The translations under genes and the position numbers were made by a program. The notes below the pieces were generated by a model. It searched no databases. It had not been told where the DNA came from and was given only the letters and a program-made list of their open reading frames with translations. A DNA stretch of 63,969 nt, the filler included, from Octopus bimaculoides (Eukaryota), in assembly GCF_001194135.2 (NCBI RefSeq). It is 7 parts of 7 records of this genome, joined end to end, with 100 filler letters (N's around TTAATTAATTAA, not from the genome) between each part and the next. Parts side by side here need not be neighbours in the genome. Positions count along the whole stretch, not along the records: positions 1 to 13,506 come from NC_069005.1; positions 13,607 to 26,752 come from NC_068997.1; positions 26,853 to 51,547 come from NC_068986.1; 4 more parts are not named here. One strand, written 5' to 3'. This document shows positions 395 through 48,423 of the stretch, in pieces (within the stretch, counting starts at the first letter, position 1; every line of letters starts with the position of its first letter).

Positions 395-479
395 ATCACT
401 ATAATTGTTTCCATCTATTTAGAAACTGAACAACTGGTTTAAGAGTATCCATCGGTGTAGATGTGTCTCTTCAGGTGAT
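395..479 (-). ncRNA. Decayed minimal type-I hammerhead ribozyme interrupted by an insertion
   Basis: Minus strand reads AUCAC-CUGAAGA-GACA-CAUC-UACACC-GAUG-[34 nt insert + duplicated GAUG]-GAAAC-AAUU-AUA-GUGAU. It has a 5-bp stem I, the CUGANGA and GAAA cores and a palindromic loop 3; the triplet is mutated to AUA. Confidence 0.65.
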
Positions 480-567
480 TACAAGGTGCACTTTCTTAAA
501 ATAACCTCCGCTCCACTAGTTTTCTTCACGGTATGTGTTTGTGTGTGTGTGTGTGTAATAATGGATT

Positions 568-727
568 CAAATTTTGGCACAAGCCCAGCAACTTCGACTC
601 CAATGCTCAACTGTTACTTGTTTCATCCACCCCGAAAGAATGAAGGTCAAAGTCGACCTCGGAATAATTTGAATTCAGAATGTAAAGACAGACTAAACAT
701 TTTGTCCGGCGTCCTAACGATTCCGCC
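568..727 (-). mobile_element. tRNA-derived SINE family B (Meta-like central domain)
   Basis: Reverse complement of the family-B motif GAGTTCAAATTCCGCCGAGGTCGACTTTGCCTTTCATCCTTTCGGG, seen in more than 12 copies in this window. Confidence 0.8.
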
Positions 728-988
728 TTATATTTATTTATGATAATAACTGATATAAACTTTAGTTCGTTGGCTGGCTGGCTGGCTGGCTGGCTGGCTG
801 GCTCGTTGATCGACTGGCTGATTTACATCGCATAGAGAGACGGGAAGATAAAGATAGAGAGATATGAGAAGTACAGAGAGAGTTAACGCAAGAGGTGCAC
901 GATGAGTGCTCACACTAAAAAGACACAACATATACTAAAAGAACACAGCACATATATGCAGACAGGATGAGACAGAATCGTAAAGACG

Positions 989-1109
989 GATAAGGAGGAA
1001 GACGAGAAGGAGGAAGACGAGAAGGAGGAAGACGAGAAGGAGGAAGACGAGAAGGAGGAAGACGAGAAGGAGGAAGACGAGAAGGAGGAAGACGAGAAGG
1101 AGGAAGACG
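989..1109. repeat. 15-bp tandem repeat (GAGAAGGAGGAAGAC)n running into a gap
   Basis: About 8 exact units; it produces the spurious RLPPS ORF. Confidence 0.95.
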
Positions 1110-1766
1110 NNNNNNNNNNNNNNNNNNNNNNNNNNNNNNNNNNNNNNNNNNNNNNNNNNNNNNNNNNNNNNNNNNNNNNNNNNNNNNNNNNNNNNNNNNN
1201 NNNNNNNNNNNNNNNNNNNNNNNNNNNNNNNNNNNNNNNNNNNNNNNNNNNNNNNNNNNNNNNNNNNNNNNNNNNNNNNNNNNNNNNNNNNNNNNNNNNN
1301 NNNNNNNNNNNNNNNNNNNNNNNNNNNNNNNNNNNNNNNNNNNNNNNNNNNNNNNNNNNNNNNNNNNNNNNNNNNNNNNNNNNNNNNNNNNNNNNNNNNN
1401 NNNNNNNNNNNNNNNNNNNNNNNNNNNNNNNNNNNNNNNNNNNNNNNNNNNNNNNNNNNNNNNNNNNNNNNNNNNNNNNNNNNNNNNNNNNNNNNNNNNN
1501 NNNNNNNNNNNNNNNNNNNNNNNNNNNNNNNNNNNNNNNNNNNNNNNNNNNNNNNNNNNNNNNNNNNNNNNNNNNNNNNNNNNNNNNNNNNNNNNNNNNN
1601 NNNNNNNNNNNTATATATATATATATATATATATATATATGTATGTGTGTGTGTGTGTGTGTGTGTGTGTGTGTGTGTGTATTGGTGTAGTGAACATGTC
1701 ACATGATAATATACTATATATATATATATATATATATATAGGGGTCGAAATCACGAGGTAGGGAGG

Positions 1767-2040
1767 GAAAAAGAAATGTCAGAAAAATTTAAGGTGAAGT
1801 ACTTGCACAGACTGAGATTGACTCTCAGGTCGAAATTAAACGGACGGAATAAGACTGAAGCTATCAACACCTGGACAATTTCACTCCTTAGATATGGAGC
1901 AGGGTAATCGCATGGTCAGTAGACGAACTAAACAGCTTAGACAGAAAGACAAGGAAGTTGCTGACGAGACATGAGATACTCCACCCAAAAAGTGACAGAC
2001 ACACTGTAGGTACCAAGAGGGTGGAAGAGGACTGATATAG
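1767..2040 (+). mobile_element. R4/Dong-like RLE non-LTR retrotransposon, RT C-terminal fragment (decayed)
   Basis: Translates EKFKVKYLHRLRLTLRSKLNGRNKTEAINTWTISLLRYGAG..WSVDELNSLDRKTRKLLTRHEILHPKSD..GGRGLI, typical of the R4-clade AINTWA..LRY / LDRKTRK / HPKSD / GGRGL region. Confidence 0.85.
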
Positions 2041-46555: not shown

Positions 46556-46970
46556 GGTGCAGGAGTGGCTGTGTGGTAAGTAGCTTGCTTGCCAACCACG
46601 TGGTTCCAGGTTCAGTCCCATTGCGTGGCACTTTGACACGTGTCTTCTACTATAGCCTCGGGCCGACCAAACCCTTGTCAGTGGATTTGGTAGACGGAAA
46701 CTGAAAGAAGCCCGTCGTATGTGTGTGTGTGTGTGTGTGTGTGTGTGTGTGTGTGTGTGTGTGTGTGTTTATGTATTTGTGTGTCTGTGTTTGTCACCCC
46801 ACCATCGCTTGACATCCGATGTTGGTCTGTTCATGTCCGGTTCGGCAAAAGAGACGGATAGAATAAGCACTAGGCTTTCAAAGAATAAGTCCTGGGCTCG
46901 ATTTCTTCGACTAAAGGCGGTGCTCCAGCATGGCTGTAGTCAAATGACTGAAACAAATAAAATAAAAGAA
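46556..46970 (+). mobile_element. SINE family A, full length
   Basis: Head, CORE-like domain, internal (TG)n and complete tail. Confidence 0.92.
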
Positions 46971-47094
46971 TATGATTTGTAGTATTGGTTTTGAGCATTA
47001 AATTTTCTTGCTTTTTAACTCTTCGTTGACACACGACCTGCTAGAAATAGAAGCCATATCACACCTTCAAAATCATGCCATATTATATTTAAAT

Positions 47095-47275
47095 ACTGCG
47101 TTCAAATTTTGCACAAGACCATTTCCGGGTTGAGAGAGTAAGTAATTTATATCAAACCCAGCACTCAACTGCTACTTATTTTATCTGTGAAAGGCAAAGT
47201 CGACTTCGACGTAATTTGAACTCAGAGCGTAGAGACGGACGAAATGCTTTTAAACATCGTGACAGCTCGCCACTT
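47095..47275 (-). mobile_element. SINE family B monomer, diverged
   Basis: AAAGGCAAAGTCGACTTCGACGTAATTTGAACTCAGAGCG. Confidence 0.75.
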
Positions 47276-47431
47276 TTATAGTCTCTTAAAAATATTCAAA
47301 TGTAGTGCTAGATCCATTTATTCAAAATACATAACCAACAGGAGTTATATATGTATATCATATGCGTATATATATTATACATATTTTTATATTCATATAT
47401 TTATAAATATTCATATATATATATTTATATA

Positions 47432-47594
47432 TATATGTAAATATATAAAAACAAAAAGATAAAGAGAGCAAAGGTAAGGTTGAAGAATTTTATGGATGGA
47501 GTCTTACAGCTGTTTCTGGGAAGAATCTATCCATAAAATTCTTCAACCTTACCTTTGCTCTCTTTATTTTTTTGTTTTTATATATTTACATATA
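47432..47594. repeat. Near-perfect fold-back repeat (66-bp arms) enclosing half a hammerhead
   Basis: 47432-47497 vs 47529-47594 has 1 mismatch. The 31-nt spacer reads CCCA-GAAAC-AGCU-GUA-AGACUC on the minus strand. Confidence 0.95.
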
Positions 47595-48383
47595 CACACG
47601 CTAATACACGACTTATAATATCCAATCCTGTTCATACAACGACTGGGGCAAACTAATCGGTATACAGCACTTACTCGGTATTACCTGTATCCTCCGGGGT
47701 TTGGTTAAATCCAATACCCTCCTCAACCTTATATTCATATATTTATAAATATTCATATATATATATTTATATATATATGNNNNNNNNNNNNNNNNNNNNN
47801 NNNNNNNNNNNNNNNNNNNNNNNNNNNNNNNNNNNNNNNNNNNNNNNNNNNNNNNNNNNNNNNNNNNNNNNNNNNNNNNNNNNNNNNNNNNNNNNNNNNN
47901 NNNNNNNNNNNNNNNNNNNNNNNNNNNNNNNNNNNNNNNNNNNNNNNNNNNNNNNNNNNNNNNNNNNNNNNNNNNNNNNNNNNNNNNNNNNNNNNNNNNN
48001 NNNNNNNNNNNNNNNNNNNNNNNNNNNNNNNNNNNNNNNNNNNNNNNNNNNNNNNNNNNNNNNNNNNNNNNNNNNNNNNNNNNNNNNNNNNNNNNNNNNN
48101 NNNNNNNNNNNNNNNNNNNNNNNNNNNNNNNNNNNNNNNNNNNNNNNNNNNNNNNNNNNNNNNNNNNNNNNNNNNNNNNNNNNNNNNNNNNNNNNNNNNN
48201 NNNNNNNNNNNNNNNNNNNNNNNNNNNNNNNNNNNNNNNNNNNNNNNNNNNNNNNNNNNNNNNNNNNNNNNNNNNNNNNNNNTAAAATAAAAATGGATGG
48301 CACCATGAAAGAAAGTATTGAATGTAGATGAAATATTGAGTGTTCAATATAAAGGATCAAATATATAAATATAAATATATAAA

Positions 48384-48423
48384 GGCGACTCGAGTTTCAG
48401 GGCTATTTCCCTTCGTCATGGCC
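48384..48423 (-). ncRNA. Minimal type-I hammerhead ribozyme with a one-base core insertion
   Basis: GGC-C[A]UGACGA-AGGG-AAAUAG-CCCU-GAAAC-UCGA-GUC-GCC: all three stems, palindromic loop 3 and a GUC triplet. Confidence 0.8.

What the first reader, a model, noticed from the sequence alone, without database searches (positions are those of the whole stretch)
395..48423. Synthesis: multiple ribozyme-bearing, fold-back-forming short elements without their own ORF
Four different hammerhead sequences (loop 3 AAUU, none, AGCU, UCGA) and four near-perfect 61-73 bp fold-backs occur within 48 kb, alongside two decayed Penelope ORFs. Known: Penelope-like elements have hammerhead-containing pLTRs, often leave inverted truncated termini, and can mobilise non-autonomous ribozyme RNAs (retrozymes). 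Inference: a diverse set of non-autonomous PLE-derived elements in this genome that seed dsRNA hairpins, relevant given heavy A-to-I editing in coleoids. Whether this is undescribed needs a database check.
Basis: partly seen in the sequence, partly recalled or inferred. Interest (0 to 1): 0.75.

Follow-up and report, generated by a model that had tools for sequence, protein, structure and literature searches.

The report
Octopus retrozymes with Penelope insertion footprints
The hairpins and hammerhead-ribozyme motifs here are stumps of several unrelated jumping repeats: two are broken ends of protein-coding Penelope-type elements, and three belong to protein-free, many-copy families that land in the same mirror-image pattern, so they likely borrow the Penelope enzyme, as already proposed for animal 'retrozymes'.

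Summary
The motifs are real, but they do not form one 48-kb cluster: they lie on three unlinked stretches, and in the window only one hammerhead (half of one) sits in a fold-back. Fold-backs 12827 and 15716 are truncated copies of two sister ORF-less units, F1 (542 nt) and F2 (584 nt). Both carry canonical type I hammerheads, and their head-to-tail joint recurs at 91 and 72 pattern matches genome-wide. The hammerhead at 48384 belongs to a young 365-nt ORF-less element (H4) with a fixed 5' limit and an extra core base (1,037 matches against 0 exact canonical). The hammerheads at 395 and 47505 are 3' ends of coding Penelope-like elements. Four families share the published footprint: TA targets, inverted 5' copy, one-sided tail (45 of 49 resolvable pairs). 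Fold-backs 32435 and 41844 are unrelated. Cleavage, RNA circles, the helper enzyme and A-to-I editing are not shown. This scan reported the same kind of element on other DNA. Verdict: new members of a known kind, with useful footprint evidence.

The parts
395..481 (-). H1: damaged type I hammerhead (loop 3 AAUU, long stem II) in an old 3' end of a coding PLE; the copy runs on into the family's tail
   Evidence: 642 first-look candidates, best relatives 71-88%; L054 shows inverted tail + GIY-YIG C-terminus + hammerhead on one strand
11776..11813 (+). H2: minimal hammerhead without loop 3, decayed; old family, parent not found
   Evidence: 88 candidates, 69-79% identity; relatives keep core and palindromic helix III
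12726..12967 (.). F1 copy: head-to-head pair of 5'-truncated copies of a 542-nt ORF-less hammerhead unit; minus arm covers unit 339-501 and enters a gap, plus arm starts near unit 326 and stops at end A (418); the hammerhead (unit 195-260) is lost in this copy
   Evidence: 1,797 candidates
15716..15948 (.). F2 copy: head-to-head pair from a 584-nt ORF-less sister unit; forward arm unit 310-482 (end A), inverted arm 380-444 entering a gap; hammerhead lost in this copy
   Evidence: 1,503 candidates, many 99-100% identical
15982..16822 (-). Decayed Hydra-type PLE ORF (RT thumb, CxCX5C linker, GIY-YIG endonuclease) with stops and a frameshift; tail-to-tail with the F2 copy, probably a separate insertion
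   Evidence: tblastn E 4e-5 against L313; clade marks from PMC8557442 section 11
24257..24568 (.). F3: 73-bp arms facing tail-to-tail across an AC repeat; distant relatives show PLE-like head-to-head ends; origin of this pair unresolved
   Evidence: (10 matches, 8 other loci at 78-83%)
32435..33186 (.). F4: 71-bp arms, single-locus inverted duplication, no family, no hammerhead
   Evidence: 2 of 2 candidates are the two arms
41844..42279 (.). Fold-back holding a Tc1/mariner-type transposase fragment (motif recognised from memory; Pfam blank); not PLE-related
47432..47729 (.). H3 copy: forward 3' end of a Hydra-type PLE (minus, 47520-47432, cut inside stem II of the hammerhead) joined to an inverted copy with a 135-140-nt tail (47521-47729)
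   Evidence: 787 candidates; longer copies run about 1 kb upstream into a GIY-YIG ORF
48283..48447 (-). H4 copy: 5' part of a young 365-nt ORF-less element; hammerhead at 48384-48423 with an extra A between C3 and U4; 3' part lost in an assembly gap

Best explanation
The features are stumps of at least five repeat families; F1, F2 and H4 have no protein-coding frame and yet insert with the footprint of Penelope-like elements, so they are likely passengers copied by a Penelope-like reverse transcriptase-endonuclease, while H1 and H3 are truncated 3' ends of coding elements of that class. Shown from sequence: TA-rich targets, two fixed 3' ends per family (A and B, 53-140 nt apart), variable 5' truncation, and head-to-head pairs that nearly always use A on one side and B on the other. 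Shown: F1 and F2 are 540-586-nt units whose end B runs straight into the unit start, at dispersed sites. Inferred: the enzyme nicks both strands of a TA tract and starts cDNA at site A from one nick and site B from the other; the two cDNAs join by microhomology, which makes the fold-back anew at each insertion. Inferred: the F1/F2 template is a more-than-unit transcript or a ligated circle made by hammerhead cleavage (retrozyme cycle); which of the two is open. Inferred: H4 is a one-unit passenger whose ribozyme is weakened by the extra core base.
For: F1 unit 542 nt, longest open frame 46 codons. F2 unit 584-586 nt; its longest open frames are antisense and differ between copies (134, 64, 74 codons). 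Unit joints: 91 and 72 matches, reversed-pattern controls 0; in the fetched loci every F1 unit start with enough flank is preceded by the unit's own end or by a truncation, never by an ORF. L186 holds two F1 hammerheads 540 nt apart. F1 and F2 are colinear, 58% identical (score 346 against 172 +/- 13 for 50 shuffles), with two stem I pairs changed on both sides and different palindromes in helix III (29 rows chosen from 43 distinct ones). The F1 monomer folds at z -4.7, 0 of 100 shuffles as stable; F2 z -3.4. End pairs: A+B in 20, 13, 3 and 9 cases for F1, F2, H4, H3; A+A 1; B+B 3; 51 of 100 rows unresolved. H4 never extends past its 5' limit in the 30 loci of each, both picked without 5' bias; most copies start within its first 25 nt. 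H3 and H1 run into GIY-YIG coding sequence. The inverted copy with a one-sided tail, TA targeting and internal RT start sites are published for PLEs (PMC8557442, PMC3846280, PMC11167929).
Against: No coding element homologous to F1, F2 or H4 was found; among nine representative stretches only F1 and F2 matched each other beyond AT-rich noise and hits of 20 nt or less. No intact helper ORF was seen: the three long frames fetched were inflated by gaps. Most loci for the end-pair count were fetched with fold-back queries, which favours the window's layout, and the table holds a few double rows. RNA reads fit passive read-through, not an abundant monomer: 327-411 reads per run, both orientations alike, 77-81% running on into unlike flanks, no pile-up of ends. 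About 85 of 100 listed F1 copies and about 83 of 100 F2 copies read through the scissile bond. Long tandem arrays were not seen; one 542-nt spacing proved to be a local duplication with flank. Single hammerhead regions fold no better than shuffles except F2 (z -2.0). Rfam gathering search on 7 loci: 0 matches.
Confidence: 0.78

Rival explanations
1. All of them are only 5'-truncated ends of autonomous PLEs whose full-length copies the gappy assembly fails to show; there is no independent non-autonomous family.
For: True for H1 and H3. The assembly is gappy next to these repeats. PMC4209133 reads dispersed single hammerheads as truncated PLEs.
Against: F1 and F2 close on themselves at 91 and 72 joint matches; H4 has a hard 5' limit, whereas H3 5' ends spread over more than 1 kb.
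Confidence: 0.08
2. F1 and F2 are ORF-deleted mini-PLEs copied from linear partial-tandem transcripts; the hammerhead is inherited and need not cut, and no circle exists. This differs from the best explanation only in the template.
For: Most copies read through the cleavage site; no abundant monomer signal; in the anole PLE, ribozyme mutants still insert in vitro (PMC11167929); H3 amplified with U4C in 18 of 18 loci that reach the core and H4 with an extra core base.
Against: Core kept and stem I changed on both sides between F1 and F2; 7 of 100 listed F1 copies start at the first base after the scissile bond, against at most 2 at any other of 16 positions, though TA-rich flanks can mimic 5 of the 7.
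Confidence: 0.4
3. The fold-backs are foldback or MITE-like DNA elements, or assembly artefacts, unrelated to retrotransposition.
For: 41844 looks like a DNA-transposon fragment (motif recalled); 32435 is unique; gaps flank several copies; L269 and L297 show duplicated blocks.
Against: For F1, F2, H3, H4 the arms have variable inner ends and two fixed outer ends; arms differ by substitutions; opposite-strand joints recur at the same places in three RNA runs.
Confidence: 0.05
4. The hairpins are kept because they feed double-stranded RNA to the host's A-to-I editing or RNAi systems.
For: Fold-back F1 transcripts exist (three joints seen in all three raw runs); thousands of candidate loci across families.
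Against: A>G sites (13-14) are matched by G>A (9-14), T>C (8-10) and C>T (8-10) in a many-copy family; turning points vary; the layout follows from the insertion mechanism; no conservation test was possible.
Confidence: 0.1

Closest known systems
Metazoan non-LTR retrozymes (Cervera and de la Pena 2020, PMC7229834, passages and Discussion read; Li, Clavereau and Pollet 2026, bioRxiv 10.64898/2026.07.22.740005, parts 1-3 of 5 read)
   Same: ORF-less, low-GC unit with one type I hammerhead, head-to-tail copies, stable predicted fold, PLEs proposed as helpers; unit length inside the 51-972 bp range of Li et al.
   Different: F1 and F2 are mostly dispersed, truncated copies with at most about 1.5 units seen, and show the inverted copy and one-sided tail. 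The word 'inverted' does not occur in PMC7229834, and the parts of Li et al. read argue from co-occurrence and pLTR homology, without molluscs. Circles and cleavage are shown there, not here.
Insertions of endonuclease-bearing PLEs: partial tandem, inverted 5'-truncated copy, optional tail (PMC3846280 passages; PMC8557442 passages and section 11; PMC11167929 parts 1-2 of 4)
   Same: Same layout, TA targets, two 3' ends matching two internal RT start sites
   Different: Tails here are 53, 99, 124 and 140 nt against the published 30-40; F1, F2, H4 have no ORF
Hydra-clade PLEs, including Hydra-1_Obim (PMC8557442 section 11 and supplement rows)
   Same: H3 parent and the window remnant have a C-terminal GIY-YIG domain with CxCX5C linker; the H3 parent also has CxxC and CxH and lacks CCHH; TA targets; hammerhead in the 3' region
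   Different: The listed Hydra-1_Obim hammerhead has other stems and loop 3 than H1, H3, H4, F1 or F2; no RT tree was built
Minimal PLE hammerheads (Cervera and de la Pena 2014, PMC4209133, parts 1-2 of 4) and natural core variants (Perreault et al. 2011, PMC3088659, passages)
   Same: Type I, palindromic or absent helix III, extra base after A9, many families per genome, pairs on opposite strands; U4C and insertions near C3 are known to lower activity
   Different: An A between C3 and U4 fixed in about 1,000 young copies was not among the variants in the passages read; Lunse et al. 2016 could not be read
Non-autonomous Chlamys PLEs such as MRC1 (PMC8557442, one passage)
   Same: ORF-less PLE passengers with pLTRs and head-to-tail insertions
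   Different: Those resemble autonomous families at the 3' end and mostly lack hammerheads; no such partner was found here

Membership tests
Non-LTR retrozyme (F1, F2) | No protein-coding capacity | tested here: met
   F1 longest frame 46 codons; F2 frames antisense and not kept between three copies
Non-LTR retrozyme (F1, F2) | Type I hammerhead with intact core in the unit | tested here: met
   138 matches to the F1 5' half
Non-LTR retrozyme (F1, F2) | Head-to-tail tandem with two complete hammerheads | tested here: met
   F1: L186, two motifs 540 nt apart, one with a changed base after A9. F2: joint at 72 matches and unit-plus-partial copies, no two-hammerhead tandem seen
Non-LTR retrozyme (F1, F2) | Abundant monomeric linear and circular RNA | tested here: inconclusive
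   F1 only: low, read-through-like coverage, no end pile-up; library type may lose circles
Non-LTR retrozyme (F1, F2) | Self-cleavage | not testable with these tools
   Indirect 5'-end test confounded by microhomology
Non-LTR retrozyme (H4) | Head-to-tail tandem | tested here: not met
   0 matches to an exact end-to-start pattern with up to 30 nt between; none in the loci mapped
Non-LTR retrozyme (H4) | Consensus hammerhead core | tested here: not met
   extra A after C3: 1,037 matches; canonical 0 exact, 2 with one mismatch
EN+ PLE insertion product (F1, F2, H3, H4) | Inverted 5'-truncated copy with variable joint | tested here: met
EN+ PLE insertion product (F1, F2, H3, H4) | Optional tail present at one end only | tested here: met
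   45 of 49 resolvable pairs are A+B; 51 of 100 rows unresolved; sampling biased; tails longer than published
EN+ PLE insertion product (F1, F2, H3, H4) | TA microsatellite targets | tested here: met
   read by eye from flanks; no statistical control against the genome's TA density
Hydra-clade PLE (H3 parent, window remnant) | C-terminal GIY-YIG with CxCX5C linker, CxxC and CxH, no CCHH | tested here: met
   L153, L166, L313 translations; linker only for the window remnant; criteria
Hydra-clade PLE (H3 parent, window remnant) | RT core motifs (DKT, RWK) and placement in the RT tree | not tested
   RT core lies in assembly gaps in the three loci fetched
Autonomous PLE (F1, F2, H4) | RT plus endonuclease ORF | tested here: not met

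The most novel reading that the evidence does not exclude
F1 and F2 are true circular-RNA retrozymes whose roughly 3,000 candidate loci record, in their two fixed start sites and mirror-image joints, that a Hydra-type Penelope enzyme reverse-transcribes the circle. H4 is a passenger that gave up both the tandem and a working ribozyme and still reached about 1,000 near-identical copies. One genome would then hold a natural experiment on whether hammerhead cleavage matters for Penelope-driven mobility.
Probability: 0.3. Interest if true: 0.68.

Novelty: new member of a known kind. Interest (0 to 1): 0.42.

Why it matters
Which enzyme moves animal retrozymes, and whether the hammerhead has to cut, are open in the papers read. 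ORF-less units carrying the PLE integration footprint are structural evidence for the PLE-helper model, and they name the RT start sites to test. Families with canonical, U4C and insertion cores give ready contrasts for cleavage and mobility assays. The fold-backs add transcribed hairpins to the genome, but no host role is shown.

Tried and rejected
Rfam: no hammerhead in the listed rows for the window or at gathering score in 7 loci. Pfam: nothing useful for 74 window frames or 4 further proteins. A motif at 24655 was rejected as a hammerhead: changed core, no valid cleavage triplet, no family over that part. My first label 'Neptune-like' was replaced by Hydra. A 542-nt spacing of F2 joints was a local duplication with flank, so the F1-F2 comparison was void and was redone. 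Long open frames of 1,002, 913 and 599 codons were gap-inflated. The first H4 sample was biased toward the window's 5' end and was redone. 5' ends at the scissile bond: F1 7 of 100, F2 4 of 100 (one more ambiguous) within two bases, but F2 shows about 5 of 100 at a nearby AT-rich site, so microhomology can explain it; each family has one palindromic pair whose longer arm ends at or near the site. The same genome-wide count for H4 was not obtained; in 30 loci one copy starts exactly there. No listed run holding F1 is on record as RNA. Literature: searches gave no paper on octopus retrozymes; PMC13282606 has no mention of hammerheads. Repbase and Dfam could not be searched, so prior annotation of these families is not excluded; supplements of the Li et al. 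preprint were not seen.
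Full report
Setting. The window is a pack of seven stretches. The finding spans three: 1-13506 on contig C25, 13607-26752 on C17 and 26853-51547 on C6 of a 2.34-Gb genome. Co-occurrence within 48 kb therefore means nothing beyond a high density of such repeats.

Observation. Four hammerhead-like motifs are present, all damaged, partial or variant. None passed my strict descriptors as a complete motif, and Rfam listed none among 150 of 216 rows. 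Fold-backs with 61-107-bp arms are present; 9 inverted pairs against 0 in 20 shuffles. One decayed PLE ORF lies at 15982-16822 minus; a second was not found. I then traced each feature to its family in the genome. Candidate numbers below are first-look counts, not copy numbers.

Two hammerheads are ends of coding elements. H3 (47432-47729; 787 candidates) consists of a forward 3' end cut inside stem II, joined to an inverted copy that runs 135-140 nt past the forward end. Longer copies extend about 1 kb upstream into a GIY-YIG frame. Its CxCX5C linker, CxxC and CxH motifs and lack of CCHH match the Hydra clade as defined in PMC8557442 section 11. The family core reads U4C in 18 of 18 loci that reach it. 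H1 (395-481; 642 candidates, 71-88%) is older; L054 shows inverted tail, endonuclease C-terminus and hammerhead in order. H2 (11776-11813) is an old minimal hammerhead family at 69-79%; its parent was not traced.

Two fold-backs belong to ORF-less hammerhead units. F1 (12726-12967; 1,797 candidates) is a 542-nt unit whose longest open frame is 46 codons and which holds a canonical type I hammerhead at unit 195-260. Its last base runs straight into its first: 91 matches genome-wide, control 0, and in the fetched loci the unit start is never preceded by an ORF. L186 has two hammerheads 540 nt apart. F2 (15716-15948; 1,503 candidates, many 99-100% identical) is a 584-586-nt sister, 58% identical and colinear, joint at 72 matches. 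Between the two, two stem I pairs change on both sides and helix III uses different palindromes (29 of 43 distinct rows aligned, 26 of 29 paired at position 4, all 29 at the other five). This is one divergence event, so it is modest evidence of selection. The F1 monomer folds at z -4.7.

H4 (48283-48447) is a third kind: 365 nt, no ORF of note (76 codons at most), very young (30 of 30 loci 100% identical over 122 nt). In two samples picked without 5' bias no copy extends beyond a fixed limit about 25 nt upstream of the hammerhead, and most start within the first 25 nt. No head-to-tail joint was found. Its core has an extra A between C3 and U4: 1,037 matches against 0 exact canonical ones. Insertions near C3 impair other natural hammerheads (PMC3088659), so weak cleavage is inferred, not measured.

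Common footprint. F1, F2, H3 and H4 each have two fixed 3' ends, 124, 99, 140 and 53 nt apart, and TA-rich flanks. Head-to-head pairs use one of each end in 45 of 49 resolvable cases; 51 of 100 rows could not be resolved and sampling favoured fold-backs. In less biased samples about 8 of 30 F1 loci and 3-5 of 29 H4 insertions have an inverted part. This is the published PLE layout, and the two ends correspond to two internal RT start sites in the anole element. The inferred mechanism is priming from nicks on both strands of a TA tract, one cDNA from each start site, joined by microhomology. Tails here are longer than the 30-40 nt in print.

Other fold-backs. 32435-33186 is single-copy. 41844-42279 holds a transposase-like fragment recognised from memory. 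24257-24568 has distant PLE-like relatives but faces tail-to-tail and is unresolved.

RNA. Three raw runs of one study, about 6% of each read, gave 411, 393 and 327 reads on 484 nt of F1. Both mate orientations are alike, depth follows the part that truncated copies share, 77-81% of reads run into unlike flanks and no ends pile up. Three opposite-strand joints recur in all three runs, so some fold-back copies are transcribed. This fits read-through from host transcripts; the library may miss circles, and the organism label of the runs is not shown to be the window's species. Substitution types give no editing signal. Genomic 5' ends at the scissile bond: 7 of 100 listed F1 matches, 4 of 100 for F2 within two bases, both open to microhomology with TA flanks; most copies read through, so the template was uncut or re-ligated.

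Comparison. F1 meets the sequence criteria for non-LTR retrozymes and F2 meets them except for a two-hammerhead tandem; expression as circles and cleavage are untested. PLE mobilisation of such elements is proposed in PMC7229834 and bioRxiv 10.64898/2026.07.22.740005, on co-occurrence and homology; I did not find the insertion footprint used as evidence in the parts read or in searches. H4 fails the retrozyme tests but works like a PLE passenger. No helper was identified, and the listed Hydra-1_Obim hammerhead differs from all those here. Earlier notes of this scan describe the same kind on other DNA; look-ups by sequence for F1 and H4 were blank.

Verdict. Observation partly confirmed; interpretation partly supported. 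New members of known kinds, with evidence that bears on an open question. Interest 0.42.

Noticed in passing
window 34875-34979 minus: U6 snRNA copy, 76.9 bits against a gathering score of 44, with several changes in conserved positions; probably a pseudogene.
   Followed up: no
window 53142-53367 and 51676-51846: A 107-bp fold-back with a 12-nt loop and a related copy 1.4 kb away, outside the finding.
   Followed up: no
window 25100-25950 and 4799-5257: Decayed non-LTR retrotransposon fragments, R4/Dong-like by recalled motifs; not PLE.
   Followed up: partly
L030, L008, L082, L231: F1 copies lie next to or fused with H4 or H3 copies; in L030 an H4 5' part joins the F1 tail directly. Shared targets or template switching.
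   Followed up: no
L048, L180, L138, L094, L172: ORF-less or truncated copies sit in TA tracts inside or beside other PLE remnants, as F2 does at window 15948-15982.
   Followed up: partly
L029, L044, L052, L060, L068, L090, L094, L130, L139, L028: At least six further hammerhead families appear by chance in the flanks, several with canonical cores and loop 3 AGCU.
   Followed up: no
L144, L134, L227, L249: H4 copies with a short hairpin at the very 5' end, suggesting fold-back of cDNA at the template end.
   Followed up: no
   Followed up: no
L103 minus 2168-3070: A 301-codon open frame resembling the C-terminal part of a Naiad-type PLE RT by recalled motifs.
   Followed up: no
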